A DNA stretch of 40,716 nt. It comes from a virus. This document shows positions 1-40,716 of this stretch, piece by piece. The position numbers and the translations under genes were made by a program. The stretch is from the IMG/VR virus record IMGVR_UViG_3300037851_000243, positions 1-40,716 of that record. One strand, 5' to 3'. The notes beneath the pieces are model-generated. The model had not been told where the DNA came from. It searched no databases and was given only the letters and a program-made list of their open reading frames with translations. The first letter of the stretch is position 1; every line of letters begins with the position of its first letter.

Positions 1-300
1 TGAGCGTCGGCGGCGACCTCTACCTCAGCCACACTCCAATCACCGCCCTGCCTGACGGACTGAGCGTCGGCGGCGGCCTCTACCTCAGCCACACTCCAAT
101 CACCGCCCTGCCTGACGGTCTGAGCGTCGGCGGCGCCCTCTACCTCGGCCACACCCTAATCACCGCCCTGCCTGACGGACTGTGCGTCGGCGGCGACCTC
201 GACCTCAGCGACACCGCGATCACTGCCCTGCCTGACGGTCTGAGCGTCGGCGGCAACCTCGACCTCAGCGACACCCCAATCACCGCCCTGCCTGAGAATT
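1..300 (+). repeat. 60-bp in-frame tandem repeat array (5 units)
   Basis: Units 1-60, 61-120, 121-180, 181-240 and 241-300 all begin tgagcgtcggcgg (or tgtgcgtcggcgg) and differ at only a few positions. Confidence 0.95.
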
Positions 301-611
301 GCAGATTGGGCGGGAAGCGTATCTCCGACGCGCCCATCATCCCAGACATTGATCGGGCAGTGTATGCAGCGGCCTCGCAGCCGGGCGCGCTGGATATGAG
401 GAGATGGCATTGCGGCACCTCACACTGCCGTGCCGGCTGGATCGTGACGCTGGCCGGAGAAGCAGGCAAGCGGCTGGAGATTGACACGGGCTCCACGGCC
501 AATGCAGCGATGCTGATTTATGCTGCGAGTGCGCCGGGCCAGCCGATCCCCGACTTTTATTGTGATAACGAGGCGGCTCTGGCCAACATGAAGGCCAGAG
601 CAGGCCTGTAG
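1..611 (+). CDS. C-terminal part of an LRR-like (20-aa repeat) protein. The 5' end is outside the window, or is the ORF opening at 40174 if the molecule is circular.
   Basis: The frame is open from the window edge (in phase with nt 3) to TAG 609-611. It has five in-frame 60-bp repeats encoding LPDGLSVGGxLxLxxTxITA, then a tail of about 110 aa containing RRWHCGTSHCRAGW. It is near-identical to 39538-40148. Confidence 0.8.
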   Translation, partial: SVGGDLYLSHTPITALPDGLSVGGGLYLSHTPITALPDGLSVGGALYLGHTLITALPDGLCVGGDLDLSDTAITALPDGLSVGGNLDLSDTPITALPENCRLGGKRISDAPIIPDIDRAVYAAASQPGALDMRRWHCGTSHCRAGWIVTLAGEAGKRLEIDTGSTANAAMLIYAASAPGQPIPDFYCDNEAALANMKARAGL

Positions 612-636
612 CGATTGAACAGGAAAGGCCACGAAG

Positions 637-675
637 ATGACAGATGCGCCGATTGATCTAGCTGCCGTCCGGTGA
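637..675 (+). pseudogene. Degenerate remnant of the start of a further repeat-protein gene copy
   Basis: 612-642 (gcgattgaacaggaaaggccacgaagatgaca) parallels the inter-copy spacer plus start at 40149-40179 (acgattgaacaggaaaggccgcgaacatgaca). Here the ATG at 637 opens only a 12-codon ORF (MTDAPIDLAAVR*). Confidence 0.4.
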
Positions 676-3233: not shown

Positions 3234-3961
3234 GCCGTCACGTGACGTCGATGACAATCGACGACGTATCCCACTACAGCGAAGCGGAGCGCGCGCAAAT
3301 CGTCGCCAGCTATCCCGCTCACGAACGTGAGGCGCGCGCGCGTGGAATCCCGACGATGGGGAGCGGGCGTATCTTTCCGATCGCTGAATCGGACCTGATC
3401 GTGCCAGCGCGGGAGGTCCCGAAGCATTGGCCGCAAATCAACGGTCTCGATTTTGGTTGGGATCATCCGTTCGCCGCAGTCAACATCGCATGGGATCGCG
3501 ACGCCGATTGTGTGTTCGTGTGTAAAACTTACCGCCGGCGGGAAGAGACGCCAGTGTTGCACGCGGCATCAATCAAACCCTGGGGTGAGTGGATTCCCTG
3601 CGCGTGGCCGCATGACGGCCTGCAACACGATAAAGGCTCCGGGCAGCAGCTGAGGGAGATCTATAAATCACACGGGCTGAATATGTTGTCCGAGCGCGCT
3701 GAACATGCCGAAGGCGGTAACGGTGTCGAAGCCGGGTTGATGGAGATGCTGGAACGGATGCAAACAGGGCGCTTCAAGGTCTTCGCCGATCTCGTGGAAT
3801 GGCTGGAGGAATTTCGCCTCTATCACCGCCTTAACGGCAAAGTCGTGAAGGAACGTGACGATCTCATGAGCGCCACGCGATACGCGGTCATGATGTTGCG
3901 CGAGGCTTGCGTGAAGCCGAGCAGCAAGCCGCTGGCGTACGGTGGGAAGCGATACGCCTGA
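3230..3961 (+). CDS. terL: Terminase large subunit, nuclease domain portion
   Basis: Contains ...MTIDDVSHYSEAERAQIVASYPAHEREARARGIPTMGSGRIFP..., GLDFGWDHP and ERDDLMSATRY (RNaseH-like nuclease acidic residues). It lies in the -1 frame relative to 2514-3233, with an ATGA junction. Confidence 0.85.
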   Translation: MSRHVTSMTIDDVSHYSEAERAQIVASYPAHEREARARGIPTMGSGRIFPIAESDLIVPAREVPKHWPQINGLDFGWDHPFAAVNIAWDRDADCVFVCKTYRRREETPVLHAASIKPWGEWIPCAWPHDGLQHDKGSGQQLREIYKSHGLNMLSERAEHAEGGNGVEAGLMEMLERMQTGRFKVFADLVEWLEEFRLYHRLNGKVVKERDDLMSATRYAVMMLREACVKPSSKPLAYGGKRYA

Positions 3962-17835: not shown

Positions 17836-20800
17836 TGGGCACAGTGCGCATCACCGATCCGCAAGGCCGGTCTTATGAAATCTCCGCACCGGACGGCGCG
17901 TCTGATGCGGAGATTCTGGATTATTTCAGAAAGAACGTGGGCGACGGCCAGTCCGGCACGGCATCGCCGCCGTTGGCAAGCGCGTATCATTCCGGGTTGT
18001 CGCGTCCCGAAATCGCAGAATACGAGAACAGGCGCAAAGACCCCGGTGGCATGTACCATCGGCGCCTCAATCAGGCCGTGACGCTTGGTGGTGGTGATGA
18101 ATTCACATCCGGCATGAACGCGCTGTGGGATACCATCAGAGGCGACAATACGCGGGGCAGCAGTTTCGGTGAGCGGTTTGCATCCCGTCAACGCGTGCAG
18201 GAAGCGCTTAATAAGGAAATGCGCGACCAGACAGCGGGCTTTGGTGGTGGCATTTTGGACGTGGTCGGGGGTCTGGCGATGGGCGCACCCAAGGCGGCCG
18301 CGACGGCGATCGGCAATGTGGCCGGTCCGGCCACGCCTGGCGCCTGGAATGCGGTAAAGCAGTTCACGCCCGAGTTCATCAAGCAAGCACCGCAGATTGC
18401 CAAGGTTGGCGCAGGCTACGGGGCCGCGCACGCATTTATGGACAGTGAAGGCGATGCGTCCGATCGTTTGGCCCACGTTCCCGGCGGTGCTGTTGATGGT
18501 GCCAAAGGCGCGCTCGTGTTCGGCGCGGGCCTTGGGACAGCGCTGGCCGCCAAACAGGGACGTGCCGTTGCCAAGGCGGAGCGGGTCGCGGCGCAGCAGG
18601 ACAACGCGCGCGAGATGACCGATGTCGGCGTGACACCATTTGCCCCCGCAATCACGCAAAATCGCTTTGCGCGTGGCATGGCCGAAGGGCTTGCTGATAG
18701 TATTGTTGGTGCACCTGTGCGCCGCGGCGCACAGCAATCGATTGATGAAACATCGGACGCGTTCCGCGCCATGTTGCGTCCCCATACGTTCGGCCAAGCC
18801 TCCAGTGAACTCGGGGACGAGTTGCAAGGCATTCTGCAGAAACAGCTGCGCAGCCGAACCGTCGATGATTGGAAGACGGCAACCGATGCCGACTTGGAAC
18901 GGACTGTGGGGCCTGTCACGGAGCATGGGTTTAGGCCGCCGCGCCCTATTGTCGAGCCCGTGGCGCCAAGGACTGTCGACCCGGTTGTGCCGGACTATAC
19001 CCGGTATCCGCCACAGAACGAACCGGCACCGAATATCGCGGTCGAAGCCAAGTATCCGCGGTTTGAGGATATGCCGGACCGAAGCGCGGCGAAGATCGCC
19101 GAACTCACCCATCGCGCTGAAGTGCATGGTGCGGAGGGTCGCCGCTTGAGCGCGGACATCGCGAAAGCGGAGCAAGACATCATGCGCTTGCGTCGAGAGG
19201 TCGTCGATAAATTCAAGGACGATCCCACCGACGTCTATGGCGATCTGCCATTGGTGTACGGTGGTTCGGTGAACAAGTTCCGCGGCTTGCTTGGCAAGCG
19301 CTCGGAAATTTTCTCGAAAATCAAGGATCCCACGATCTGGCATGATGGGTTTGATCCGTTGGCCAGCGATCATGGCTGGAATCCCCGTGCTGTCGCTGCG
19401 CTCCCGCCAGAGTACGTGCAACGGTTCAACAAAGCGCACGCCGATTTGGACGCGCTGAATCAGAAACGAACAACGCACGCAGAGGCAGCTCGTGCGGCCG
19501 ACGAACAGCGCCGGACGCTGGCGGAGACAAGCGAGAGCGACAGGCTTTTGGATTGGAAAGCGGCCGTCACGCGAGAGCGGACGCGGGCGGAGCTTGAGGC
19601 GCGGCGCGCGGTTGAGGACAGCCAGAAGGACAGCGCGCGACGACGCGCAGACGCAGAGGCCGCAGCAGAGACGCAACGGCTTGTCGAGCGTGCGCGCCGC
19701 GATGCCGATGCACAGACGCGGGCGGCGCAGGAGGCGGCCGACCTGGAATGGCAGAACCGACCGAATGCGATGCAATTCGGCACGTCACGCACGCACACGT
19801 ATCCCGATGAAGCGGCAGCCGCTTATGAAGCGGTCGATCGCGCGACCCCACGGTTTCAGACCAATGTGCTTGGTCGCCCGGCGACATCGAAGCTGGGTGC
19901 GGCGGAGACGGCGACAAGCCACTTGCTGTCTGATCTCGCTGACAAGGCACGCATCCAGTATCATCACAAGGGATATCGCGGCGCTGTTTACGATAATGGC
20001 AGTTATCGGTTTGATCCGCAATTCTTCGCCCATCTGCGCACACTCTATGGACCGAAAATATCCGATCATTTGGCCAGCTACGCCAATATGCGGGCAGGCG
20101 GTGCGGCGCAATTCGATATTCGCCGCATGCACGCCTTCAGAACCGTGATCGGGCAGGAACTACAGGACGTGCGCTTGGCCAAGAAAATCGGCGCGCCGCG
20201 CACCGAAGACGAGGTACAATTGGATCGTCTCTATAAGGCGGTGTCAGAGGATATTGATGCGGCCAAGCGCGCCGTTCCAGGCGGCGCGCGCGCGGCTGAC
20301 ATGCGCAAGGCCGTTGATGACGCCTACGCCGATCACAAGACTGTTGTCGAGAAGCCGCTGTTGCGCGTGTTTGGCGAGAAGGTCGCTCCGATTGAAGCCA
20401 TGGAGCGCCTTGGAACGGCCGTCGAGCGCGGAGACTTGCGCACGGTGAATGCCTTCATGCGCGTGTTGAAGGACAAGGACGACCCTATCAAGGGCGCAAT
20501 GGCCATTGTCGCGCATATGACGGAGAATGCCAGGGATCTCGGCAGCATCATGAAGGGTCTCGCGAAGATTCCACCGGAATCGCGAGCGGTGCTATTCCAG
20601 ACGCCGGCCGGTCGCGAGTATCGAACGGCGCTGGAGAAGATTGAGCGCGTCGCCCAGAAATTGCGTCCCTATCAGAAAGCCATCGAGACAAGCGGCAAAG
20701 GGTTTGGCGTCGCCAACACGATTCTCGGGACCAGCATCATCGGACATGCCATTCATGCGCTGGCGGCTCCCATGACCACCGCCAGCGGTGCGGGAGGCGC

Positions 20801-21698
20801 ATATTTGCTGGGCCGCTTCTTGGCATCGCCGCGGTATGTGCAATGGTTGACCAAGACGCCGAGCGTCTCCGCGTTGCGCGGGTCAAACCCGTTGTTCCAG
20901 AAAACCATCGCGCGTCTGTCAGCCGTCGCAGCCGCAGACTCCGAAACCGGTGATGCGATCTTGTCAGCCATTGGCAATGCGATCCGCCCAGGCAGTGCTA
21001 ATGCGATGTTTGCTGGCGAGTCGGCTGCGACGGCGGATCGAAAGATGCTGGCCAAAGCCCAAGAGATGGAAAACAACGGTGCCGACCGTGATGCGATCTG
21101 GAAAACAACGGGGTGGTTCAAGCAACCGGACGGACGGTGGCGCTACGAGATCAGCGATGACAAAGCGAACACGACGCCGATGTTCGATGCGACACACGCT
21201 GTGTCGCGTCAGAAGAGATCAATGCACCAAACGCAGATGAAAAATCTTCTGCAGCATGACCGATTGTATGACGCTTATCCGGATATCGGGTCAATGCCGG
21301 TGACGATGCACAACTTCGGTCCAAAATTAGAGGCCGCCGCTTATTACCTCCCCGGCGACGATGAAACGGTTCTCAACACCCATCCCAAAAACGGTGCCGG
21401 GCGTAACGAGGTGCTGCATGAAATTCAGCATGCAATCCAGAAGCGCGAGGGCTTTCGCTATGGCGATTTGCGGGCCGGTAAGGTCGTGTTTGATGACACC
21501 TACTATCGCAAACCAGGTGAGGCCGAAGCGTATAACGTCGACGACCGCGCGAACATGACAGCCGAAGAACGGTGGGCAACGCCGCCGTGGCAAACGGGAC
21601 GTGTCGCCGAGCGTGACATTGAGTGGGGTTCGACGCATGCCAAATCGATGAGCGTCGAGGACAGGAAGAAACGCCGCAACAGTCATCGCAACAGATAG
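17835..21698 (+). CDS. Giant internal virion / polyvalent-type protein with a C-terminal zincin-like HExxH domain (1287 aa)
   Basis: TAATG coupling to the upstream gene. The N-terminus has ITDPQGRSYEISAPDGASDAEILDYF. The C-terminus has WKTTGWFKQPDGRWRYEISDD ... VLHEIQHAIQKREGF, with HEIQH at 21417-21431. Confidence 0.85.
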   Translation: MGTVRITDPQGRSYEISAPDGASDAEILDYFRKNVGDGQSGTASPPLASAYHSGLSRPEIAEYENRRKDPGGMYHRRLNQAVTLGGGDEFTSGMNALWDTIRGDNTRGSSFGERFASRQRVQEALNKEMRDQTAGFGGGILDVVGGLAMGAPKAAATAIGNVAGPATPGAWNAVKQFTPEFIKQAPQIAKVGAGYGAAHAFMDSEGDASDRLAHVPGGAVDGAKGALVFGAGLGTALAAKQGRAVAKAERVAAQQDNAREMTDVGVTPFAPAITQNRFARGMAEGLADSIVGAPVRRGAQQSIDETSDAFRAMLRPHTFGQASSELGDELQGILQKQLRSRTVDDWKTATDADLERTVGPVTEHGFRPPRPIVEPVAPRTVDPVVPDYTRYPPQNEPAPNIAVEAKYPRFEDMPDRSAAKIAELTHRAEVHGAEGRRLSADIAKAEQDIMRLRREVVDKFKDDPTDVYGDLPLVYGGSVNKFRGLLGKRSEIFSKIKDPTIWHDGFDPLASDHGWNPRAVAALPPEYVQRFNKAHADLDALNQKRTTHAEAARAADEQRRTLAETSESDRLLDWKAAVTRERTRAELEARRAVEDSQKDSARRRADAEAAAETQRLVERARRDADAQTRAAQEAADLEWQNRPNAMQFGTSRTHTYPDEAAAAYEAVDRATPRFQTNVLGRPATSKLGAAETATSHLLSDLADKARIQYHHKGYRGAVYDNGSYRFDPQFFAHLRTLYGPKISDHLASYANMRAGGAAQFDIRRMHAFRTVIGQELQDVRLAKKIGAPRTEDEVQLDRLYKAVSEDIDAAKRAVPGGARAADMRKAVDDAYADHKTVVEKPLLRVFGEKVAPIEAMERLGTAVERGDLRTVNAFMRVLKDKDDPIKGAMAIVAHMTENARDLGSIMKGLAKIPPESRAVLFQTPAGREYRTALEKIERVAQKLRPYQKAIETSGKGFGVANTILGTSIIGHAIHALAAPMTTASGAGGAYLLGRFLASPRYVQWLTKTPSVSALRGSNPLFQKTIARLSAVAAADSETGDAILSAIGNAIRPGSANAMFAGESAATADRKMLAKAQEMENNGADRDAIWKTTGWFKQPDGRWRYEISDDKANTTPMFDATHAVSRQKRSMHQTQMKNLLQHDRLYDAYPDIGSMPVTMHNFGPKLEAAAYYLPGDDETVLNTHPKNGAGRNEVLHEIQHAIQKREGFRYGDLRAGKVVFDDTYYRKPGEAEAYNVDDRANMTAEERWATPPWQTGRVAERDIEWGSTHAKSMSVEDRKKRRNSHRNR

Positions 21699-25392: not shown

Positions 25393-26457
25393 TCATTGAA
25401 CCGACAACCGCTTCGGCAATTGGACCACTTCCGCAGCACCCCGCATGCTTTCAACACTGGGTTTCGCATAGGTGTCGCGAGTAATCTGCGGATTGGCGTG
25501 ACCAAGAAAGCGCGCGATTTTCTCCATTGGCACATCGCTCGCCTCAAGCCAGCTTGCTGCAGTATGGCGTAAAGTGTGCGGCGTCACGCCGTCTATGCCG
25601 GCACGACGGCACGCCGCGCGAAAGCCAACGCGGATGCACCTGACAGATTCACCGTTCCATTCGATGACGTGATCAGTCAGACGGCCTTCGCGGGCCTCTG
25701 CCAAAGCAGCGCGCGCCCAATCGTTGATATACGAGATTTTGGCGCGACCCTTGCGGACCGCCTTTGAAAGCGGGTTTATCTGTTCCTCGCGATTGAGGTC
25801 GATGCAACGCAATTCGAGGTCAACGCGATCCCAGGTCAACTCAAGCAGCGCGGTTGATCGTGCACCGGTCGCAATGGCCAAGATGATGAACAAGCGCATG
25901 TGCGGCATAACGCAGGCGTCGATGAGGCGTTGCGCTTCGTCGGGTGTCAAAATCCGCGATTTTGGCAGGGGTTTCGCAGGCAACCAGACATAGGGCGTCT
26001 CAGACAGCGCGCGGCGCTTGCAGGCCCAATTGAGGCATGCACGCAAGTATATCAGTTCAGTCCAGGCTGTACCGGCGGACCGGCCGACGTCGAGACGTTG
26101 TTGCGTGTAGTACCGGCACAGATCGGCCGTGATAGAGGCGGGACGCAACGGTCCAAAGACCGTTGCCAGTGCTTTCCAGTGATGATGCAACGATGCGACC
26201 TGCTTACCGTCCAGCGCCCGGTCCTTCACGTATTCACGCCAGATATCGGAGACGGTGAGGGACGCAACAGCTTTCAAGGTGTTGCGTTCGGCGATCCAGG
26301 CATTGAAGAGCGCCCGCGCTTGCGTCTCAGAGGTGGCGGGGCCGAGTCTGTTCCGATGCCGGGCTCCGGTGTCGTCGCGCCATGTCGCGACCGCTTGCCC
26401 TTTGAGAGAGCCAAGCGTGTACGGTCCAACTTGGTAATGCCGCCATCTTTTTCCCAT
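25393..26457 (-). CDS. int: Tyrosine integrase (354 aa)
   Basis: The C-terminal catalytic region has ATGARSTALLELTW (Arg), HTLRHTAASW (H-x-x-R) and ...LGHANPQITRDTYAK (His...Tyr). It is adjacent to the tRNA fragment and to xis. Confidence 0.93.
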   Translation of the reverse strand: MGKRWRHYQVGPYTLGSLKGQAVATWRDDTGARHRNRLGPATSETQARALFNAWIAERNTLKAVASLTVSDIWREYVKDRALDGKQVASLHHHWKALATVFGPLRPASITADLCRYYTQQRLDVGRSAGTAWTELIYLRACLNWACKRRALSETPYVWLPAKPLPKSRILTPDEAQRLIDACVMPHMRLFIILAIATGARSTALLELTWDRVDLELRCIDLNREEQINPLSKAVRKGRAKISYINDWARAALAEAREGRLTDHVIEWNGESVRCIRVGFRAACRRAGIDGVTPHTLRHTAASWLEASDVPMEKIARFLGHANPQITRDTYAKPSVESMRGAAEVVQLPKRLSVQ

Positions 26458-27885: not shown

Positions 27886-28599
27886 TCACAGGCCGGCATC
27901 AACAAGGGCACTCATACGCGCTGCATATTCTTCTCGCAGCATGTCGCGCCACCGGTCCGGCATGTCGGCTATAGCGTCGCTATATGCGGATCCAAGGTCA
28001 CGCAGAGCATCGCTTGTGGACGCGTCGTCGATGTGTACTTTGATCTCTTTGAAAAGTTTATCAGTTCCATCACGTTTTGCTTCGGCGGAACTCTTTCGCT
28101 TGGGCCGTAGTTCGCTTTCCATGCCACTGGCCGCAGCGCCGTCATCGTCGACTTCTGGAATACCAAGAGCCGATTTGAGCGTATAGCGCCGGCCATACGT
28201 CATGGCCGATCCAATGCCCTGAGCATCATCTTTGGTGAGCGTGATCGGCAGACAGACCTGCATATATTCGCTCGTCTCGGCATGCTCGATACGCGTGTAC
28301 ACGCGTAAGATGGCACGGCCGTCTTTGCCTTCACTTCGCGACAGTTCACCAGCCCATTGCGTAAGCACAAGACCGTTCATCGTCATGGGCGCCGCAACCG
28401 CATCCAAGACGCTTTCGAGCGTCGCGTATGTGTTTTTGGCGAACGGGTTCGTGCGATCACGTTTTGCGCCCTGCATGAATTCGGATTGGGCCTTGAGGCG
28501 GGCAAGCATCAAATTCTTTCGCGACGGAGAAAATTCGATACTCTGGCCGATAATGGCCACGATCGCTGCCGGCGCTGTCGTCTTCGCTGTCTCTGTCAT
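27886..28599 (-). CDS. erf: ERF-family single-strand annealing protein (237 aa)
   Basis: Contains NPFAKNTYATLESVLDAVAAPMTMNGLVLTQ ... GIGSAMTYGRRYTLKSALGIPEVDDDG (ERF signature). I chose ATG 28599, with gggag 8 nt upstream. Confidence 0.85.
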   Translation of the reverse strand: MTETAKTTAPAAIVAIIGQSIEFSPSRKNLMLARLKAQSEFMQGAKRDRTNPFAKNTYATLESVLDAVAAPMTMNGLVLTQWAGELSRSEGKDGRAILRVYTRIEHAETSEYMQVCLPITLTKDDAQGIGSAMTYGRRYTLKSALGIPEVDDDGAAASGMESELRPKRKSSAEAKRDGTDKLFKEIKVHIDDASTSDALRDLGSAYSDAIADMPDRWRDMLREEYAARMSALVDAGL

Positions 28600-28672
28600 C
28601 GAAAAGCTCCCATTTGCATTGGGTGCAACGGTCATCGGCAACTTGAGCGCCGCATTCAGGACATGCAATCAT
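28457..28672 (-). CDS. Small zinc-ribbon protein (CPECG-x9-CTQC); true 3' end uncertain
   Basis: MIACPECGAQVADDRCTQCKWELF... has ATGA coupling to the upstream gene. The frame then runs about 140 nt into erf. Confidence 0.4.
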   Translation of the reverse strand: MIACPECGAQVADDRCTQCKWELFDDRDSEDDSAGSDRGHYRPEYRIFSVAKEFDACPPQGPIRIHAGRKT

Positions 28673-30229: not shown

Positions 30230-31189
30230 GTGTCCGTCCTGAATGCTCCCCACTTCCACGATGAAGCCGCCGCCTTCGCGAAGCTCGAAGCCGTGCTTTG
30301 GCAGAACGGCCCCGTGTGCCCGAAGTGCGGAAACAAGGAACGCATCTACGTTCTCGACGGCGTGCGCTCCAAGCCAAGCAGGAAGAACCCGGAAGGTGTG
30401 GTCCGCCACGGCTTGAAGAAGTGCGGCAAGTGCCGCCAGCAATTCACCGCGCGCGTCGGTACGGTATTCGAGTCCAGCCATATCCCGCTGCAAAAGTGGT
30501 TCCAGGCCGTGCACCTGCTCTGCTGTTCCAAAAAGGGTATCAGCAGCCACCAGCTTCATCGCGTTCTTGAGATCACCTACGAGGCGGCGTGGTTCATGAG
30601 CCACCGCATTCGTGAGGCCATGCGTTCCGGTTCTCTGGCGCCGATCGGCGGCGCTGGTAGCAGCGGCGTTGTCGAGGCTGACGAGACTTTCATCGGCCGC
30701 AAGAAGGGCGTGCCGATACGTCGCGGCGGCGCGCACAAGAACGTCGTTCTCGGCCTTGTGGAGCGCGGCGGCGAGGTTCGCACGGCCCACATCGACAACA
30801 CCAAGGCCGAGACGATCCTGCCGATCGTCAACGAGAACATTGCCAAAGAAGCGCACGTCATGACCGACGACGGCGCGACCTACTACAAGAAGCTCGGCGA
30901 CTTCGCCGGCCACGACGCTGTGAACCATTCTGCCGAAGAGTATGTGCGTCACGAGGACGGCAAGCCCGTCATCAGCACGAACACGATCGAGGGCTACTTC
31001 AGCATCTTCAAGCGCGGCATGAAGGGCGTCTACCAGCACTGTTCCGAGAAGCATCTGCACCGCTACTTGGCGGAGTTCGATTTCCGCTACAACAACCGAT
31101 CCGCCCTTGGCGTCGAAGACTGTGAAAGAACCGTAAACGCGATCAAGGGCGTCGCCGGAAAGCGGCTCACGTATCGGTCGCCTGATTGA
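30230..31189 (+). CDS. IS1595-family (ISXO2-like) DDE transposase (319 aa)
   Basis: An N-terminal zinc ribbon (CPKCG...CGKCRQQFTARVGTVFE), then ADETFIG, MTDDGATYY and NTIEGYFSIFKRGMKGVYQH. The start is GTG, with gagaggg about 10 nt upstream. Confidence 0.9.
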   Translation: MSVLNAPHFHDEAAAFAKLEAVLWQNGPVCPKCGNKERIYVLDGVRSKPSRKNPEGVVRHGLKKCGKCRQQFTARVGTVFESSHIPLQKWFQAVHLLCCSKKGISSHQLHRVLEITYEAAWFMSHRIREAMRSGSLAPIGGAGSSGVVEADETFIGRKKGVPIRRGGAHKNVVLGLVERGGEVRTAHIDNTKAETILPIVNENIAKEAHVMTDDGATYYKKLGDFAGHDAVNHSAEEYVRHEDGKPVISTNTIEGYFSIFKRGMKGVYQHCSEKHLHRYLAEFDFRYNNRSALGVEDCERTVNAIKGVAGKRLTYRSPD

Positions 31190-32604: not shown

Positions 32605-32775
32605 ATGGTAAAACTCAAGACGCAGTGCCAGAAATTTGTTGAGGCAGCCAAGTCATCAGGTGCGAGCGAGAACGCCGCTGATTTCGATAGGCTGTTGGGT
32701 GGGATCGCAAAGGCTCCGCCACCCGAGACGGTTCAAGAGCGCAAGGCCCCGAAAGCAAAAAAGCCCGCCAAGTAG
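32605..32775 (+). CDS. IS passenger ORF C: small Lys/Ala/Pro-rich protein (56 aa, below the track cutoff)
   Basis: Translated by hand as MVKLKTQCQKFVEAAKSSGASENAADFDRLLGGIAKAPPPETVQERKAPKAKKPAK*. It starts 1 nt after the PIN stop, and its stop lies in the terminator loop. Confidence 0.4.
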   Translation: MVKLKTQCQKFVEAAKSSGASENAADFDRLLGGIAKAPPPETVQERKAPKAKKPAK

Positions 32776-32787
32776 CGGGCTTTTTCT
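32757..32787 (+). terminator. Rho-independent terminator at the end of the passenger operon
   Basis: The sequence is aaaaaagcccgc-caagta-gcgggcttttt. A 7-bp GC stem is followed by a T-run and preceded by an A-run, so it may act in both directions. Confidence 0.75.
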
Positions 32788-32798
32788 TGGCGGGGCGT

Positions 32799-32821
32799 GG
32801 TTTGTCAACCGTATAATCGCC
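32799..32821 (-). repeat. IRR (reverse complement ggcgattatacggttgacaaacc)
   Basis: It pairs with IRL at 30159-30181. Confidence 0.85.
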
Positions 32822-32829
32822 GCGAACTT
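32822..32829. repeat. Target-site duplication, right copy (GCGAACTT)
   Basis: Identical to 30151-30158. Confidence 0.85.
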
Positions 32830-33189
32830 CGAGCGCGATGGCCTCACCGGGAGAAAGCAGAAGTTCAAGCTCACCAAGCCCGTCGTCGATGGGCGTCCAG
32901 CCTTCACCGGCAGCAACGGCCCCTGAGATCGGAATCCGCACGATCCCATCGGCCGTGCCGTCCCGGAGTTCGCGCAGCGTCATCCCAAGTGCCGTTGCAA
33001 CAGCCGCCAATGTCGCATTCCTTGGATCTGATGTTTTCTCAAGGAGATCATAGATCAAGCGTTCATTTTTTCCAACCGCACGCGCCAGAGCCTTGGGGTT
33101 CAACCCCCTCAGCTCCATGGCCGCTTTCAAGCGCTGTTTCCAACCTGGCTCCATGGAGACTGCATAACGAAATGTGGAAAACCAGTCTC

Positions 33190-33205
33190 GTGAGTTTGAT
33201 CTCAT
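33190..33205. promoter_or_regulatory. Operator OR2 (GTGAGTTTGATCTCAT, imperfect)
   Basis: The half-sites GTGAG and CTCAT are spaced as in the other operators. It lies 22 bp from OR1 and overlaps the ATG at 33205. Confidence 0.45.
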
Positions 33206-33462: not shown

Positions 33463-33603
33463 GTAATCCGTAGTGTTCCAGTGCGTCACCATCGGCCTCT
33501 CTGCCGGATGGATTGGCGTGCGCGCGAGCGCAGCGGTTCCTAGCCGTTGTCAGCGTCGATCCGTCCTGTTGTGTGGCCGCGTCCATGTCCTCCTAACCTC
33601 AAA

Positions 33604-33632
33604 CCCTCGGCGCGAATGCCGAGGGGATTTTT
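33604..33632 (+). terminator. Rho-independent terminator (tR1-like) downstream of the cro-like gene
   Basis: The sequence is ccctcggc-gcgaat-gccgaggg followed by gattttt. Confidence 0.65.
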
Positions 33633-33803
33633 CAGGGATATATCCCGATCATGTCCGGGACACACAATCGCAACGGTCCATGTGCGCGTTTCATCCGCGT
33701 CGATGCGACCTGAAACGAAAGACGCTCCGTTGTTTGCGCAACGGAGCGTTGAAGAGTCACATCTGCATCCCGAATGACCCAACCACTCAGGAAACAACGG
33801 TCC

Positions 33804-34019
33804 ATGAATATCAAACCGACACCGAAACGCAACACGGCAGAAGAATTGTCAACAGCCGCGATGAGTCTTCTTGGTCATCCGCGCGCCGCACTTCTCACAG
33901 CGCGCGACCGCGACGACCTCTGGGGTGTCGCGACGAAGGTTTATCCCGCGTCTGCTCAATGGCGCACTGTTGTTGCGATCATTGCGGACAGGCTCGAAGG
34001 GCGGAGTCAGGTGGCATGA
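33804..34019 (+). CDS. Hypothetical small protein (71 aa)
   Basis: aggaaa precedes ATG 33804. The stop overlaps the next ATG (ATGA at 34016-34019). Confidence 0.45.
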   Translation: MNIKPTPKRNTAEELSTAAMSLLGHPRAALLTARDRDDLWGVATKVYPASAQWRTVVAIIADRLEGRSQVA

Positions 34020-34948
34020 GACACGTCACGCACATTCGCTTGTATCCAACCGACTGGCGGTCGGGCTGCTTGGGGCTCTCCCTCGAGCAGGAAGGGCTCT
34101 ATATGCGACTGTGTATGTTCATTGCAGAAACCGGGCGTCGCGTGCCGTTGGATGACAGTCAGGCGGCGCGGACGCTCAACGTCAACATCAACCAATATCG
34201 GAAGGTTTTGGGCGACTTGCTGCGCCTTGGAAAGGTGAAACGACATGTCGACGGATACGGAAACGACAGAGTTGAAAGCGAGCGCGCCGAAGCCCAAAAG
34301 GCGACCGATCGAAAGTCTCCCGCCAAGACCGCCGGGGAGCCCGATCGGGGCTCCAATCAGGGACAAGAACGGGCGGATCATGAGTCTTCCGTAACGGTGT
34401 CCAATGATACACAATCCAGCCTGCCCCCCCAGTCACCCCCCCTAGTCACCGGGGGGGTTACCCCCCCAGTTGAGGCGGAAAAAGATCAATCTTTTCTACG
34501 CGCGAAAAAGAACCATAACCAAATAGATGTTGTTGAGGATGGGCGCGCGCGCGAAATTGCGAAGTCGAAGTACGACCTGCTGGCGGATCGTTTGACCGAA
34601 GCCGCTAAGCCAGCCATTGCCAACCCAGCGGCGTACCCCTGCCTGCTGAACCTATCAGCTCCGCTGATGTGGCTTCGCGAAGGCTGCGATCTCGAGTTGG
34701 ATATTTTACCGACCGTGGCCGAGGTCGCCCGCAGACGTGCCGGCAAGCAGAAAATCACGTCTTGGGAGTACTTCACGGCGGCGGTGGCGATCGCCAAGGC
34801 TAAGCGTGAGGGTGGGCTTCCAGCGGTCGATGTCGCCGGTCTGGTTGCGCGATCACCATCGCTATCGGACGACCGCCGGCCCGCATGGGCTGTTGATCAG
34901 GACAGGCGCCGGCAGGCAGCGCTCGAAGCTCTCAAGGAGTATCAGTGA
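34016..34948 (+). CDS. DUF1376-type replication-associated protein (310 aa)
   Basis: ggag lies 9 nt upstream of ATG 34016. The N-terminus IRLYPTDWRSGCLGLSLEQEGLYMRLCMFIAETG is the YxxDW...eeeG.Y.rLl signature of DUF1376. The upstream 180 codons of the track ORF were rejected. Confidence 0.7.
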   Translation: MRHVTHIRLYPTDWRSGCLGLSLEQEGLYMRLCMFIAETGRRVPLDDSQAARTLNVNINQYRKVLGDLLRLGKVKRHVDGYGNDRVESERAEAQKATDRKSPAKTAGEPDRGSNQGQERADHESSVTVSNDTQSSLPPQSPPLVTGGVTPPVEAEKDQSFLRAKKNHNQIDVVEDGRAREIAKSKYDLLADRLTEAAKPAIANPAAYPCLLNLSAPLMWLREGCDLELDILPTVAEVARRRAGKQKITSWEYFTAAVAIAKAKREGGLPAVDVAGLVARSPSLSDDRRPAWAVDQDRRRQAALEALKEYQ

Positions 34949-35794: not shown

Positions 35795-36340
35795 ATGCGT
35801 CCAATTTGCAAGAAAACAGCCATTGCTCTCGGTGTCTCGCTCGCCGCGCTCATGGCCACGACGTCGTACGTCAACGCTCAATCCTGCTTCGTCGGTGCAT
35901 CAACCTCTGCGGAGGTCGGGCAGATCAAAGCTGAAGGCATCACCTTCAGCCAAAATGGCTTGGGCTTCGGTCTGCTCGGCGGGTGCGCGATCGCCGTCGA
36001 CAAATTCGACGTCGGTGCCCGCATCGCCTACGACTGGTCGCAGAACGGCGGCAACGATGGCGTCTGGCAGGCGGTCGGAACGCTCGGCTATCGTCTCAAC
36101 GAGAACGTCAAGCCGTATCTCCTCGCCGGCTATGGTGGCGTCAAGATCGACTATCAGGACTATGCGGCAAGCCATCGCGGCCTCGTTGCCGGCGCTGGAC
36201 TTGAAATCGCGCTGGGCAAGAACGTCGCGCTGATCGCCGAATACAATCGGCTGTGGCTCAGCGCCAAGACGTTCGACGACATTAAAATCGATCCTGGAGC
36301 GCATGTCGTCCGCGTTGGTGTGACTTACAAGCTGTTCTGA
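35795..36340 (+). CDS. Outer-membrane beta-barrel protein (Ail/Lom/OmpA-like 8-strand type) with signal peptide (181 aa)
   Basis: RBS ggagg. The signal peptide is MRPICKKTAIALGVSLAALMATTSYVNA-QS. Alternating beta-strand patterns are visible (GFGLLGGCAIAV, VGARIAYDW, GTLGYRL, PYLLAGYGG, LVAGAGLEIAL, ALIAEYNRLW), with a terminal VGVTYKLF. Confidence 0.85.
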   Translation: MRPICKKTAIALGVSLAALMATTSYVNAQSCFVGASTSAEVGQIKAEGITFSQNGLGFGLLGGCAIAVDKFDVGARIAYDWSQNGGNDGVWQAVGTLGYRLNENVKPYLLAGYGGVKIDYQDYAASHRGLVAGAGLEIALGKNVALIAEYNRLWLSAKTFDDIKIDPGAHVVRVGVTYKLF

Positions 36341-36341
36341 C

Positions 36342-36560
36342 GTGGATCGGCTTGAGGTTATCGCGCGCGCGATCTGGTGTGCTCACGTCGTCAAGGGAAT
36401 GAGCATTCCAAACATCGTGCGCGACACGATGGAGGACGGCCTTGATTTCGAGGCCGTCCTTAATGCGCTCAACTACGGCTATTACTGGCATACGATGGAT
36501 CACTGCCGGCGCGCGATGCGTCCGGTCTGTGGCAAACAACTGCACGGAGATGTATGGTGA
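36342..36560 (+). CDS. Hypothetical small protein (72 aa)
   Basis: GTG start 2 nt after the OMP stop. The 3' end overlaps the next gene. Confidence 0.45.
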   Translation: MDRLEVIARAIWCAHVVKGMSIPNIVRDTMEDGLDFEAVLNALNYGYYWHTMDHCRRAMRPVCGKQLHGDVW

Positions 36561-37006
36561 ACGTGTTTCGTACGAAACCGCGGCAAGAATTGAAGGCACG
36601 CGATGAACTCGTCGGCGCCGGGATCGAGGTTGTGATGCCGGTCGAATATCGGTACGGCCGACGCTCTCAATCTGTTGAGCATCCGACGCCCAAGGCGAAG
36701 CCCGTCTTAACGGGCTACATCATCACCAGCGATGGCCGTCCCAAGTCGCGCCGCATCGGCGCGTTTGTCGGCTCGATCAGGCCTGATGAGGCAGCGCGTA
36801 TGAAACGGATTGATGGTCGCACTGTAAACGCTCCGCCGGCGCGATCAGGGATTCGTGCTGGCGATGTTGTGCGGGTTCGCAAGGGACCGTTTGCGGAGCT
36901 GCAGGCATCGGTTGTTGCCGTGAAAGGCCGAAAGGCGACGTTGGTGACTTGGTTGTTTGGTCGCGAGTGTCAGTTTACGGCATCCGTCATTCATGTGACG
37001 AAGTGA
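36554..37006 (+). CDS. NusG/RfaH-like transcription antitermination factor paralogue (150 aa)
   Basis: The KOW motif is IRAGDVVRVRKGPFAELQASVVAVKGRKATLVTWLFGRE. The N-terminal NGN-like part ends in KPVLTGYIIT (compare plfPGYvFv). RBS is ggag. Confidence 0.7.
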   Translation: MVNVFRTKPRQELKARDELVGAGIEVVMPVEYRYGRRSQSVEHPTPKAKPVLTGYIITSDGRPKSRRIGAFVGSIRPDEAARMKRIDGRTVNAPPARSGIRAGDVVRVRKGPFAELQASVVAVKGRKATLVTWLFGRECQFTASVIHVTK

Positions 37007-38765: not shown

Positions 38766-39332
38766 CTATGATCCACGGCCCGATCGGCCGAACTGTTTGT
38801 AGTACCGCGACATTGACCAGCCCTTGGGGCCTGCCGCCACCGCATCCTCATTCGTCCGATGGCGCAGATCGAACCATGCCACGCGCGCACGCTCGATAAC
38901 GTCAGGCGGAAACACCTTGGCGGGTCGGCCCGTGGATTTGCGCCCGTTTTTCCTTCCAGCTGCCGCGCGCCCCGCACTCGTCAGGTGCTCGATCGCGTCG
39001 CGAATCATACCATCGCGCTCCGATTTGATCGAGGTAGAGCGCGACGTTTCCACCTCGAAAATCGACGCGCCCTTGGCCTCGATCTGCTCAATCGCCGTCC
39101 ACAGCGCGTCACGCGGCTTGTCCTTGTAGGTGGTGCGCGGCGCGGCCAGGACATGCAACCACACGACTGCCACAACGTCACCCTTGCGCAGTGAGCCAAT
39201 CAGGTCAGCGAGCGTCTCGGTCTTGCTCTCAACATAGACGATCCGACAGACGGACAACGCGGCCCGCTGCCGTGCCTCAGTGAGGCGTGGCAGCGGGCGC
39301 ACATAGCCGCGCATGGTTTGTCGCAATTCCAT
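38766..39332 (-). CDS. Resolvase-like (serine-recombinase fold) protein apparently lacking the catalytic Ser (188 aa, or 182 from ATG 39314)
   Basis: By-eye alignment to gamma-delta/Tn3 resolvase gives these pairs. GYVRPLPRLTEARQ aligns to GYARVSTSQQ. RKGDVVAVVWLHVLA aligns to EEGDVILVKKLDRLGR. IEAKGASIFEV aligns to FDAQGVSIRFI. The C-terminal tail is basic and HTH-like. The upstream 119 codons of the track ORF are antisense to the repeat array and were rejected. Confidence 0.55.
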   Translation of the reverse strand: MELRQTMRGYVRPLPRLTEARQRAALSVCRIVYVESKTETLADLIGSLRKGDVVAVVWLHVLAAPRTTYKDKPRDALWTAIEQIEAKGASIFEVETSRSTSIKSERDGMIRDAIEHLTSAGRAAAGRKNGRKSTGRPAKVFPPDVIERARVAWFDLRHRTNEDAVAAGPKGWSMSRYYKQFGRSGRGS

Positions 39333-39428
39333 TGTGCAAATGATCTGCACCATATTTGACAGCGCGTCAACTATGTGCTTTGTACCGTCAACAGCGAGAC
39401 GAAATTTTACCCAACTGAGGCCGCGAAC

Positions 39429-40148
39429 ATGACACAATACAAAATAATTGACGGCATGCTGACCCCGCCTGACGGTCTCAGTGTCGGCGGCAACCTCGAC
39501 CTCAGAGGCACCGCAATCACCGCCCTGCCTGACGGACTGAGCGTCGGCGGCGACCTCTACCTCAGCCACACTCCAATCACCGCCCTGCCTGACGGACTGA
39601 GCGTCGGCGGCGGCCTCTACCTCAGCCACACTCCAATCACCGCCCTGCCTGACGGTCTGAGCGTCGGCGGCGCCCTCTACCTCGGCCACACCCTAATCAC
39701 CGCCCTGCCTGACGGACTGTGCGTCGGCGGCGACCTCGACCTCAGCGACACCGCGATCACTGCCCTGCCTGACGGTCTGAGCGTCGGCGGCAACCTCGAC
39801 CTCAGCGACACCCCAATCACCGCCCTGCCTGAGAATTGCAGATTGGGCGGGAAGCGTATCTCCGACGCGCCCATCATCCCAGACATTGATCGGGCAGTGT
39901 ATGCAGCGGCCTCGCAGCCGGGCGCGCTGGATATGAGGAGATGGCATTGCGGCACCTCACACTGCCGTGCCGGCTGGATCGTGACGCTGGCCGGAGAAGC
40001 AGGTAAGCGGCTGGAGATTGACACGGGCTCCACGGCCAACGCTGCGATGCTGATTTATGCTGCGAGTGCGCCGGGCCAGCCGATCCCCGACTTTTATTGT
40101 GATAACGAGGCGGCTCTGGCCGACATGAAAACCAGAGCAGGGCGGTAA
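39429..40148 (+). CDS. LRR-like repeat protein, copy A (239 aa; 6 full repeats, 1 degenerate repeat and a C-terminal domain)
   Basis: gagg precedes ATG 39429 (MTQYKIIDGML...). The 20-aa units are PDGLSVGGxLxLxxTxITAL. The C-terminal domain contains RRWHCGTSHCRAGW and FYCDNEAALADMK. Confidence 0.8.
   Translation: MTQYKIIDGMLTPPDGLSVGGNLDLRGTAITALPDGLSVGGDLYLSHTPITALPDGLSVGGGLYLSHTPITALPDGLSVGGALYLGHTLITALPDGLCVGGDLDLSDTAITALPDGLSVGGNLDLSDTPITALPENCRLGGKRISDAPIIPDIDRAVYAAASQPGALDMRRWHCGTSHCRAGWIVTLAGEAGKRLEIDTGSTANAAMLIYAASAPGQPIPDFYCDNEAALADMKTRAGR
39478..39837 (+). repeat. 60-bp in-frame tandem repeat array (6 units)
   Basis: The units start at 39478, 39538, 39598, 39658, 39718 and 39778. 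Confidence 0.95.
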
Positions 40149-40173
40149 CGATTGAACAGGAAAGGCCGCGAAC

Positions 40174-40716
40174 ATGACACAATACAAAATAATTGACGGC
40201 ATGCTGACCCTACCTGACGGTCTGAGCGTCGGCGGCGCCCTCTACCTCGGCCACACCCTAATCACCGCCCTGCCTGACGGACTGTGCGTCGGCGGCGACC
40301 TCGACCTCAGCGACACCGCGATCACTGCCCTGCCTGACGGTCTGAGCGTCGGCGGCGACCTCTACCTCAGCGGCACCGCAATCACCGCCCTGCCTGACGG
40401 TTTGAGCGTCGGCGGCGACCTCGACCTCTACGGCACCTCAATCACTGCTCTACCTGACGGTTTGAGCGTCGGCGGCGACCTCTACCTCAGCCACACTCCA
40501 ATCACCGCCCTGCCTGACGGACTGAGCGTCGGCGGCGGCCTCTACCTCAGCCACACTCCAATCACCGCCCTGCCTGACGGTCTGAGCGTCGGCGGCGCCC
40601 TCTACCTCGGCCACACCCTAATCACCGCCCTGCCTGACGGACTGTGCGTCGGCGGCGACCTCGACCTCAGCGACACCGCGATCACTGCCCTGCCTGACGG
40701 TCTGAGCGTCGGCGGC
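40174..40716 (+). CDS. LRR-like repeat protein, copy B, 5' part (open at the window end; 299 aa if joined to 1-611)
   Basis: aggaaagg precedes ATG 40174, and the N-terminus (MTQYKIIDGML) is the same as in copy A. There are at least 8 full repeats with no stop before the window end. The gene is absent from the ORF track because it is unterminated. Confidence 0.8.
   Translation, partial: MTQYKIIDGMLTLPDGLSVGGALYLGHTLITALPDGLCVGGDLDLSDTAITALPDGLSVGGDLYLSGTAITALPDGLSVGGDLDLYGTSITALPDGLSVGGDLYLSHTPITALPDGLSVGGGLYLSHTPITALPDGLSVGGALYLGHTLITALPDGLCVGGDLDLSDTAITALPDGLSVGG
40223..40716 (+). repeat. 60-bp in-frame tandem repeat array (8 full units plus a partial one)
   Basis: The units start at 40223, 40283 and so on to 40703. 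Units from 40463 onward are identical to 1-254. Confidence 0.95.

What the first reader, a model, noticed from the sequence alone, without database searches (positions are those of the whole stretch)
39429..40716. Two tandem paralogous LRR-like genes built from near-identical 60-bp repeats, with variation confined to predicted binding-surface codons
Copy A (39429-40148) has 6 full 20-aa units. Copy B (40174 onward, continuing into 1-611) has 9.

All units read PDGL[S/C]VGG-x-L-x-L-x-x-T-x-ITAL. Across the 15 units, differences fall at five x positions: D/G/A/N, Y/D, S/G/R/Y, H/D/G and P/A/L/S. One S/C site also varies. The x positions correspond to the xLxLxxTxI beta-strand face, which forms the ligand-binding concave surface in LRR proteins. 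The scaffold codons are invariant even at the nucleotide level.

Blocks of five units plus the C-terminal domain are duplicated between the copies: 39538-40148 is almost the same as 1-611. This points to recent unequal recombination or gene conversion, and to easy expansion or contraction of repeat number.

The C-terminal domain of about 110 aa (WHCGTSHCRAGW...FYCDNEAAL) is not one I can name. LRR proteins are unusual in phage genomes. The position is also unusual: a divergent promoter region lies upstream, and the genes precede the packaging genes.
Basis: partly seen in the sequence, partly recalled or inferred. Interest (0 to 1): 0.65.

Follow-up and report, generated by a model that had tools for sequence, protein, structure and literature searches.

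The report
Tandem phage LRR genes, orphan C-domain
A temperate phage carries two side-by-side copies of a small leucine-rich-repeat protein whose repeats are reshuffled by recombination, and both copies end in a conserved phage domain of unknown function.

Summary
Gene A (39429-40148, 239 aa, 6 units) and gene B (40174-40462 joined to 1-611, 299 aa, 9 units) are tandem paralogues built from 60-bp units. All amino-acid differences fall at unit codons 5, 9, 11, 13, 14 and 16.

Two corrections are needed:
- The scaffold is not invariant at nucleotide level. It has 7 synonymous variable sites.
- The window ends in an exact 254-bp copy of its start, inside the array. Both contig ends sit on repeat junctions, so B's nine units are a minimum-path count.

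The LRR reading holds. The repeats match a solved LRR, Vibrio FlrP (E 4e-33). The AlphaFold model (pLDDT 92) is an LRR-type solenoid.

The "unnameable" C-terminal domain is PHROG 31265. This family has about 1,900 clusters at 50% identity. Its predicted fold is a confident five-helix bundle with no structural match, and it carries an invariant WHC-T-HC-AGW loop. In relatives its N-terminal partner is nearly always some other near-perfect tandem array, mostly pentapeptide repeats.

The duplication arose by crossover between 17-bp flanking repeats. A 466-bp identical tract shows later gene conversion.

Function is untested. The most likely role is an early accessory protein with a binding array and an effector domain. 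Interest is moderate.

The parts
39429..40148 (+). Gene A, 239 aa: N-cap MTQYKIIDGMLTP, 6 LRR units, C-domain
   Evidence: Translation. AF2 pLDDT 92. The ATG start was chosen because its N-terminus is identical to gene B's.
39468..39827 (+). Array of gene A: 6 x 60 bp (20-aa LRR units)
39828..40148 (+). C-domain of A (PENCRL...TRAGR*), PHROG 31265. Five helices with the invariant loop W172-H-C-G-T-S-H-C-R-A-G-W183.
39418..39434 (+). Upstream copy of the 17-bp flanking direct repeat AGGCCGCGAACATGACA (includes A's start codon)
40149..40173 (+). A-B junction. The left part matches the sequence downstream of B; the right part (from AGGCC) matches the sequence upstream of A. This is the hybrid crossover point.
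40174..40462 (+). Gene B, 5' part: N-cap, units 1-4 and the first 10 nt of unit 5
1..611 (+). Gene B, 3' part: rest of unit 5, units 6-9 (to 290) and the C-domain (291-611). Positions 1-466 are identical to 39538-40003.
   Evidence: The product of 360-611 equals P0001, found on two other JGI contigs.
40463..40716 (+). Exact duplicate of 1-254: a terminal overlap of the contig, not extra gene sequence
626..642 (+). Downstream copy of the flanking direct repeat AGGCCACGAAGATGACA (15 of 17 identical to the upstream copy)
38766..39314 (-). Divergently oriented neighbour, 182 aa, no family match. Context only.

Best explanation
SHOWN
- A and B are two-domain cytoplasmic proteins of a temperate phage. 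The phage has an integrase, an ERF recombinase, a cI-like repressor and an SU10-type portal, capsid protein and adaptor.
- The N-terminal part is a strongly acidic LRR solenoid of the 20-residue FlrP-like class (net charge -12 in A, -21 in B).
- The hypervariable residues (D, N, G, A, Y, S, R, H, P, L) lie on or next to one of the two short strands of each 20-aa unit.
- The C-terminal part is a conserved five-helix domain, PHROG 31265. It caps the solenoid and carries an invariant H-C-x-T-x-H-C loop.

SHOWN BY ANATOMY
- The pair arose by unequal crossover between 17-bp direct repeats that flanked a single ancestral gene.
- The 3' ends have since diverged by about 6%.
- A 466-nt tract was recently homogenised by gene conversion.
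- Two-unit and five-unit blocks have been copied within and between the arrays. Repeat number and unit order therefore change by homologous recombination among near-identical 60-bp units.

INFERRED
- The array is a target-recognition surface under diversifying selection.
- The C-domain is the constant functional module, perhaps a metal-binding or Cys/His catalytic site.
- The proteins act inside the infected cell or lysogen on a host or rival-phage protein. That would make them an accessory host-takeover or anti-defence factor, with two copies giving two specificities.
For: - LRR fold.
- Selection pattern: 11 non-synonymous and 2 synonymous sites in x codons against 0 and 7 in scaffold codons, p = 4.6e-4. 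The same positions are the most variable family-wide.
- Duplication junction is a hybrid of the two flanks.
- Gene conversion: all 9 A/B differences lie in the last 145 of 611 nt, chance about 2e-6.
- Independent support for two 3' variants: two other JGI contigs are 100% identical to the window and both start at window 340. That is 467 minus 127, where 467 is the first A/B mismatch, as expected for a k=127 graph fork (the choice of k is my inference).
- Repeat number varies from 1 to 7 units among proteins with the same LRR + C-domain architecture.
- C-domain: pLDDT 92.4; 22 invariant columns including W-H-C-T-H-C-A-G-W; 1,915 representatives at E<=1e-3.
- Modularity: of 148 loci with the C-domain, 117 have a nucleotide-level tandem array upstream in the same ORF. 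The commonest periods are 15 (63 loci), 45 (15), 9 (12), 30 (7), 60 (7) and 36 (5).
- Early or accessory location of relatives: gene 4 in the early region of T7-like RsoP1IDN; first annotated gene in the Bakoly genome record; between cI/Rad52 and Dam/integrase in the P0121 phage; upstream of the integrase in the P0133 contig; directly upstream of a protein I read as a YqaJ-type exonuclease (from its sequence only) in 16 loci.
- The related Edno5 LRR gene sits between cI and exo/recT.
Against: - No experiment, named homologue or structural match gives a function for the C-domain. Searches of Pfam, NCBIfam, PADLOC, PDB sequences and two fold libraries were all negative.
- In this window the genes are not in the early-left operon. 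They lie between a NusG-like gene and the terminase module. None of their neighbours recurs next to relatives, so context from relatives may not transfer.
- N-terminal partners are so varied (pentapeptide, CSx, 12-aa, LRR, or none) that the array might be a length-variable spacer rather than a specific binder. It is not uniformly acidic: 18% of partners have pI > 7.
- Unit counts rest on an assembly that breaks inside the array.
Confidence: 0.55

Rival explanations
1. Assembly artefact. Only one gene exists. Two strain variants and a collapsed or expanded repeat were strung together as tandem copies, and the 254-bp overlap gives a false circularisation.
For: - Both contig ends lie on repeat junctions, and a 144-nt exact repeat occurs at three loci.
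- Sister contigs break at the array.
- 24 of 148 related contigs end at the repeat.
- Gene A's exact product is on record nowhere else.
- The gene's N-terminal DNA was not found in the metagenome collection. That collection also lacks the sister contigs, so this says little.
Against: - The A-B junction is a specific hybrid whose crossover lies in a 17-bp repeat. That is far below any assembler k, and the repeat has a diverged second copy (15 of 17) downstream of B.
- The 3' ends differ at 9 sites, giving 3 amino-acid changes and different stop codons.
- Closing the circle gives an in-frame gene.
- A strain mix would not create the junction sequence.
- Unit counts could still be wrong even if the tandem pair is real.
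Confidence: 0.12
2. Lysogenic-conversion effector. A and B are secreted LRR effectors of the IpaH/SspH/YopM type, delivered by the lysogen into a eukaryotic host.
For: - The solenoid resembles YopM, IpaH and SspH1 LRR domains.
- An Ail/Lom-like outer-membrane beta-barrel moron lies nearby at 35795-36340.
Against: - There is no NEL or other effector domain.
- The C-domain occurs in T7-like Ralstonia phages, which I take to be strictly lytic, and in phages and prophages binned with environmental Hyphomicrobium, Paracoccus, Reyranella, Nitrospira and others.
- I saw no signal peptide or obvious secretion signal when reading the N-terminus MTQYKIIDGML. No prediction tool was run.
Confidence: 0.05
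3. Prophage-encoded defence or superinfection-exclusion sensor. The LRR array senses a protein of an incoming phage and the C-domain is a toxic or blocking effector.
For: - The phage is temperate and the genes sit in a moron-like position with no conserved neighbours.
- Hypervariable sensor surfaces are typical of immune receptors (general knowledge).
Against: - There is no PADLOC match.
- The family sits in the early region of T7-like phages, which I take to be lytic. That fits counter-defence or takeover better than defence.
Confidence: 0.13
4. Programmed diversification. The x codons are rewritten by a dedicated mechanism, either a diversity-generating retroelement or an invertase/shufflon, rather than by ordinary recombination and selection.
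For: Variable codons are mostly of the NNC type (GAC, GGC, GCC, AAC, TAC, CAC, AGC), which recalls DGR output.
Against: - No reverse transcriptase was found in the ORFs scanned.
- The substitutions are not adenine-specific (CCA/CTA/TCA, AGC/AGA).
- The copies are direct repeats, not inverted.
- The upstream 182-aa gene matches no recombinase.
- The inverted repeats found are short and look like chance matches.
Confidence: 0.03

Closest known systems
Vibrio FlrP (PDB 8z5u/8z5w/8z60), the LRR protein of the polar flagellar motor
   Same: It has the same 20-residue repeat class (LPxGLxVGGxLxLxxTxI). The match is E 4e-33 by sequence, with 38% identity over 148 aligned columns and Foldseek E 8.7e-6. 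It is a beta-solenoid (bioRxiv 10.64898/2025.12.04.692373).
   Different: FlrP has a Sec signal peptide, is positively charged, binds the flagellar rod and has no C-terminal domain. A and B are acidic, lack an obvious signal peptide (by eye), are phage-encoded and carry the PHROG 31265 domain.
PHROG 31265, the 'putative pentapeptide repeat protein' of Ralstonia phages (RSK1 ORF34, RsoP1IDN gp4, RpY1, Bakoly gp1)
   Same: The C-terminal domain is homologous, 56-60% identical over more than 90% of its length. The invariant WHC-T-HC-AGW motif is shared. The architecture is the same: a tandem-repeat solenoid followed by the C-domain.
   Different: Those proteins carry A(D/N)LxG pentapeptide repeats (PF00805). 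A and B carry LRR units and give no PF00805 hit. None of the 148 related loci has two copies.
Edwardsiella phage Edno5 gp47 (AYP69195.1)
   Same: It has a near-identical repeat, PDGLSVGGxLxLxGTGITAL, in 7 units. It is 70% identical at amino-acid level and 77% at nucleotide level. It lies in an early accessory region.
   Different: It has an unrelated C-terminal domain and a different N-cap.
IpaH/SspH/YopM bacterial LRR effectors, and lamprey VLRs and repebodies
   Same: They share a short-repeat LRR solenoid with variable residues on the strand face. In IpaH and SspH the layout is also an LRR recognition domain followed by a constant C-terminal module (general knowledge).
   Different: There is no NEL domain. 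The C-domain here is 106 aa with no fold match. There is no evidence of secretion, and no VLR-type cassette donor arrays were found.

Membership tests
Leucine-rich repeat superfamily (20-residue FlrP-like class) | Tandem 20-30-aa units with an LxxLxLxx(N/T/C)xL core | tested here: met
   15 units read xLxLxxTxI within PDGLSVGGxLxLxxTxITAL.
Leucine-rich repeat superfamily (20-residue FlrP-like class) | Significant sequence similarity to a solved LRR | tested here: met
   8z5u_0, E 4.4e-33. Also designed LRR proteins and SspH1 at weaker E-values. Repeats inflate such scores.
Leucine-rich repeat superfamily (20-residue FlrP-like class) | Solenoid fold matching LRR structures | tested here: met
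   AF2 pLDDT 92. The top 50 Foldseek hits are almost all LRR proteins. This is a prediction, not an experiment.
Leucine-rich repeat superfamily (20-residue FlrP-like class) | Pfam LRR model above its gathering score | tested here: not met
   LRR_1 scores 19.4 against 20.6. LRR_4 scores 18.8 and 23.2 against 27. This reflects model sensitivity for this repeat class.
PHROG 31265 / C-domain family | Profile match plus the invariant W-H-C-x-T-x-H-C-x-A-G-W loop | tested here: met
   E 1e-38. The motif is present at A residues 172-183.
Pentapeptide repeat proteins (PF00805) | Tandem A(D/N)LxX pentapeptides forming a quadrilateral beta-helix | tested here: not met
   No PF00805 hit for A or B. The model is an LRR solenoid with a 20-aa unit. 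Only relatives carry PF00805.
Diversity-generating retroelement target | Reverse transcriptase, template repeat and adenine-specific substitutions | tested here: not met
   No RT among the ORFs scanned. Substitutions are not adenine-specific. Small ORFs were not all scanned.
IpaH/SspH NEL effectors | C-terminal NEL E3-ligase domain with a catalytic Cys | tested here: not met
   No Pfam hit. The C-domain is 106 aa with no PDB fold match.
Known anti-phage defence proteins (PADLOC) | Match to a defence-system model | tested here: not met
   No hit at E<=0.1.
Early / host-takeover accessory gene | Early transcription and an intracellular target | not testable with these tools
   Only positional evidence from relatives is available.

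The most novel reading that the evidence does not exclude
PHROG 31265 proteins would be a broad, uncharacterised class of phage 'adaptive binders'. A constant orphan-fold effector domain is fused to whichever near-perfect tandem-repeat solenoid the lineage has acquired (pentapeptide, LRR, CSx, 12-aa). Unit number and surface residues turn over rapidly by recombination, without a retroelement, to track variable host defence or takeover targets. The tandem A/B pair in this window would show cassette exchange by gene conversion in progress, a recombination-based analogue of VLR or DGR diversification.
Probability: 0.12. Interest if true: 0.8.

Novelty: new variant of a known kind. Interest (0 to 1): 0.45.

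Why it matters
The finding links a tidy local curiosity, two recombining LRR genes, to a large phage protein family that has no function and is partly mis-annotated. About 1,900 clusters at 50% identity share a confidently predicted domain with no structural match. That domain is almost always coupled to a fast-evolving tandem-repeat array.

If the arrays are specificity modules, the family would be a source of natural binders and probably of new phage-host interaction mechanisms.

There are also two practical lessons:
- Such arrays break short-read assemblies. 24 of 148 related contigs end at the array, and this window's 254-bp terminal overlap lies inside it.
- Repeat counts and 'direct terminal repeats' at such sites should not be trusted without long reads.

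Tried and rejected
- Function for the C-domain. Pfam, NCBIfam and PADLOC gave nothing.
- PDB by sequence. A profile search gave only a marginal hit to mitochondrial RbfA (E 0.004). I rejected it because the model is all-alpha and Foldseek finds nothing.
- Fold libraries. Foldseek against PDB and BFVD found nothing below E 0.5.
- DNA-mimic or polyanion idea for the arrays. A and B are very acidic, but 18% of family N-domains are basic, so this is not a general property.
- DGR. No reverse transcriptase was found.
- Invertase switch. The upstream 182-aa protein looks vaguely resolvase-like by eye but has no Pfam, PHROG, NCBIfam or PDB match.
- Conserved synteny. None of 15 window neighbours recurs near relatives.
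- Population variation. Two metagenome scans, one with the N-terminal DNA and one with the C-domain DNA, found nothing. The collection evidently lacks the samples that hold the sister contigs.
- Non-coding features. There were no Rfam hits and no tRNAs, and no promoter consensus.
- Literature. I found no paper on this family.
Full report
**1. What is in the sequence**

The window ends with an exact copy of its first 254 bases (40463-40716 = 1-254). The non-redundant sequence is therefore 40,462 bp.

Gene A is 39429-40148. It encodes 239 aa: a 13-residue cap, six 20-residue units and a 106-residue C-terminal domain. Gene B starts at 40174. It reads in frame into 1-611 only when the overlap is removed, giving 299 aa with nine units. 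TRF finds the period-60 arrays.

All 15 units read PDGL[S/C]VGGxLxLxxTxITAL. They reduce to 9 distinct nucleotide units and 8 distinct peptide units, because blocks are duplicated:
- B units 1-2 equal B units 7-8 and A units 4-5.
- At the protein level B units 5-9 equal A units 2-6. At the nucleotide level the only differences are two bases in unit 5.

**2. Pattern of variation**

Twenty of the 60 nucleotide columns vary.
- Eleven are non-synonymous, and all lie in codons 5, 9, 11, 13, 14 and 16.
- Nine are synonymous, and seven of those lie in scaffold codons.

The underlying point is strengthened, though. Scaffold codons accept only silent change, and x codons accept almost only replacements (Fisher p = 4.6e-4).

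An HMM of the unit pulled 212 distinct full units from 69 other proteins. Entropy peaks at positions 9, 16, 13 and 14, followed by 5, 2 and 11. The window therefore shows the family's usual hypervariable positions, not a local mechanism.

**3. Assembly caveat**

Position 1 is the first base of the 466-nt block that is identical in A (39538-40003) and B (1-466). Position 40716 is the last base of a 144-nt exact repeat that occurs at three loci: 39648, 40213, and 111 with its overlap copy at 40573. Both contig ends thus lie on repeat junctions. The 254-bp 'terminal repeat' is a by-product of that.

A six-unit, 360-bp cycle could be traversed more than once. Nine units in B is therefore the minimal solution.

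Two contigs from other JGI samples (3300037310, 29.9 kb; 3300043260, 4.7 kb) are 100% identical to the window. Both begin at window 340. That is exactly 127 nt before the first A/B mismatch at 467. This is what a k=127 graph fork would produce (my inference), and it implies that both 3' variants coexist in those samples too.

**4. Is the tandem pair real?**

The 25-nt A-B junction is a hybrid. Up to AGGAAAGGCC it matches the sequence downstream of B. From AGGCCGCGAACATGACA onward it matches the sequence upstream of A.

The ancestral gene was flanked by a 17-bp direct repeat: 39418-34 reads AGGCCGCGAACATGACA and 626-42 reads AGGCCACGAAGATGACA. Unequal crossover there yields exactly this structure.

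The 3' 145 nt differ at 9 sites, with three amino-acid changes and different stop codons. The preceding 466 nt are identical. The chance of that distribution is about 2e-6. This indicates an older duplication followed by recent gene conversion.

I rate a pure assembly artefact at about 0.12. The unit numbers remain uncertain even if the pair is real.

**5. Fold**

Pfam LRR models fall just below threshold. A PDB sequence search nonetheless hits Vibrio FlrP (8z5u) at E 4e-33. FlrP is the beta-solenoid LRR protein that binds the polar flagellar rod.

AlphaFold2 models gene A at pLDDT 92 and pTM 0.87. The model has two short strands per unit (unit residues 5-6 and 10-11) followed by five helices. 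Foldseek returns FlrP first (E 8.7e-6, 38% identity), and the remaining hits are almost all LRR proteins, including YopM, IpaH, SspH1, SHOC2 and VLR/repebodies.

Mapping L10, L12, T15 and I17 of the unit onto L4, L6, N9 and L11 of LxxLxLxxNxL puts the variable residues at canonical positions 3, 5, 7, 8 and 10. From general knowledge, positions 3, 5, 7 and 8 are classical ligand-contact sites; position 10 is simply variable. This mapping is inference.

The arrays are very acidic: -12 in A and -21 in B, pI 4.05.

**6. The C-terminal domain**

It matches PHROG 31265 (unknown function) at E 1e-38. Homologues occur in 19 records of Ralstonia phages and one Flavobacterium phage record. In many of the Ralstonia records the protein is annotated 'putative pentapeptide repeat protein' because of its N-terminal half.
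- A word-indexed search found 424 relatives.
- An exhaustive profile search found 1,915 cluster representatives at E<=1e-3, of which 1,302 are at E<=1e-10. In the 150 listed, the domain is almost always at the C-terminus of proteins of 100-430 aa.
- 472 IMG/VR contigs and 63 species-representative genomes carry it.

The domain alone models at pLDDT 92.4 as five helices. It has no match in PDB or BFVD and none by profile-sequence search.

Invariant residues cluster in the loop W-H-C-x-T-x-H-C-x-A-G-W. In the full-length model the ten-residue block containing most of this loop has lower confidence (mean pLDDT about 73). That would be consistent with a site that needs a metal or ligand (inference).

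**7. Family architecture**

Of 148 loci with the C-domain:
- 117 have a nucleotide-level tandem array (typically 80-95% matches) in the same ORF just upstream. The periods are 15 (63 loci), 45 (15), 9 (12), 30 (7), 60 (7), 36 (5), 75 (3), 27 (2), and 24, 90 and 171 (1 each).
- 24 contigs end at or near the domain.
- 7 have no array.

The repeat types are unrelated to one another: A(D/N/V)L(S/R)(G/D) pentapeptides, CS[GDRY] tripeptides, 12-aa units, 24-aa units that resemble Pfam PF13475 repeats, and LRR units.

Proteins with the LRR + C-domain architecture are a small minority and have 1 to 7 units. No other locus has two copies of the domain.

The LRR module itself is also fused to other domains, such as PcfJ-like PF14284 and a recurrent C-terminal domain of about 150 aa. 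Among GenBank phage records it appears only in Edwardsiella phage Edno5, with a different C-terminus.

**8. Context**

The phage carries the following features.

| Feature | Coordinates |
|---|---|
| Integrase | 25393-26457 (-) |
| ERF recombinase | 27886-28668 (-) |
| cI-like HTH repressor | 32615-33205 (-) |
| DUF1376 replication protein | 33473-34948 |
| Outer-membrane beta-barrel moron | 35795-36340 |
| NusG/KOW-like protein | 36554-37006 |
| SU10-type terminase, portal, capsid protein and adaptor | downstream of B |

A and B sit between two or more minus-strand ORFs of unknown function and a 343-aa ORF of unknown function (the N-terminus looks hydrophobic by eye), ahead of the packaging genes. 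No neighbour recurs next to relatives.

Relatives sit elsewhere:
- the early region of T7-like RsoP1IDN, as gene 4;
- the first annotated gene in the Bakoly genome record;
- the cI-Rad52-...-Dam-integrase operon of a temperate phage;
- upstream of an integrase;
- directly upstream of a protein I read as a YqaJ-type exonuclease (from its sequence only) in 16 loci.

This favours an early accessory role (host takeover or counter-defence). The evidence is positional only.

**9. Mechanism**

Shown: an LRR solenoid, replacements restricted to the strand-face positions, tandem duplication by short-repeat crossover, later gene conversion, and block shuffling of units.

Inferred: the array recognises a target, the C-domain supplies a constant activity or anchor, and the proteins work in the cytoplasm. 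I saw no signal peptide when reading the sequence; no predictor was run.

Rivals:
- assembly artefact (0.12);
- prophage defence sensor (0.13);
- secreted effector (0.05);
- programmed diversification by a DGR or invertase (0.03). No reverse transcriptase or recombinase was found.

**10. Verdict**

The genes are a new variant (an LRR array, tandemly duplicated) of an already catalogued but uncharacterised phage family. I found no paper on this family.

The wider pattern is the more interesting lead: an orphan-fold domain coupled to interchangeable, fast-evolving tandem arrays. Interest 0.45.

Noticed in passing
window 1-254 and 40463-40716: The 254-bp terminal overlap is exact and lies inside a coding repeat array. 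Its ends coincide with repeat junctions (254 = 2 x 127). It would be scored as a direct terminal repeat or as evidence of a circular genome, but it is a by-product of the repeat structure.
   Followed up: yes
window 30230-31189 (+): An IS1595-family transposase (DDE_Tnp_IS1595, E 2.5e-34, plus a zinc ribbon). It has the highest GC3 in the window (0.80). It looks like an insertion sequence sitting inside the phage's early region.
   Followed up: partly
window 2514-3233 and 3230-3961 (+): The large terminase appears split into two overlapping ORFs (Terminase_6N, then Terminase_6N weak plus Terminase_6C). The sequence is identical in three independent assemblies, so a sequencing error is unlikely. 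It may be a genuine split or a frameshift.
   Followed up: no
window 17835-21698 (+): A 1287-aa protein whose only match is LPD23, a 'large polyvalent protein associated' domain. It lies in the tail or injection part of an SU10-like structural module.
   Followed up: no
window 35795-36340 and 36554-37006 (+): An outer-membrane beta-barrel (Ail/Lom-like) moron, followed by a NusG/KOW-like protein that matches a PHROG 'transcription antiterminator'.
   Followed up: partly
window 38766-39314 (-), hairpin 39262-39298: The gene divergent from A (182 aa) begins MRGYVRP...Q and looks resolvase-like by eye, but it lacks the catalytic serine motif and has no database match. An 18-nt, 89%-complementary hairpin lies near its 5' end.
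   Followed up: partly
loci L007-L149 (relatives of the C-domain): The C-domain is almost always preceded by a near-perfect tandem array of varying and unrelated unit type (15, 9, 36, 60, 24 bp and others). 24 of 148 contigs end right at the array, which makes it a systematic assembly breakpoint.
   Followed up: yes
L001:4929-5672 (Edwardsiella phage Edno5 gp47): It carries the same 20-aa LRR unit, 77% identical at nucleotide level although the host is an Edwardsiella (an enterobacterium). Its C-terminal domain is unrelated. It lies between cI and exo/recT.
   Followed up: partly
proteins P0126, P0128, P0130, P0137, P0150, P0180: A second recurrent architecture: 7-12 of the same LRR units followed by a conserved domain of about 150 aa (...YVPGKYLYADGILTH...YYAHC...GACQAGTEQF...) with no annotation. 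Some lie on phage-sized contigs (40-41 kb).
   Followed up: no
16 related loci, e.g. L056:2097-2972: A protein I read as a YqaJ-type exonuclease (from its sequence only) lies immediately downstream of the C-domain gene. A second protein that looks RecT-like by sequence lies nearby in 11 loci, downstream in 9 of them. This places the gene where lambda has gam.
   Followed up: partly
window 637-675 (+): A 12-codon ORF (MTDAPIDLAAVR*) starts at the downstream copy of the 17-bp flanking repeat. It may be the vestige of a further gene copy, or just the start of a small downstream ORF.
   Followed up: no
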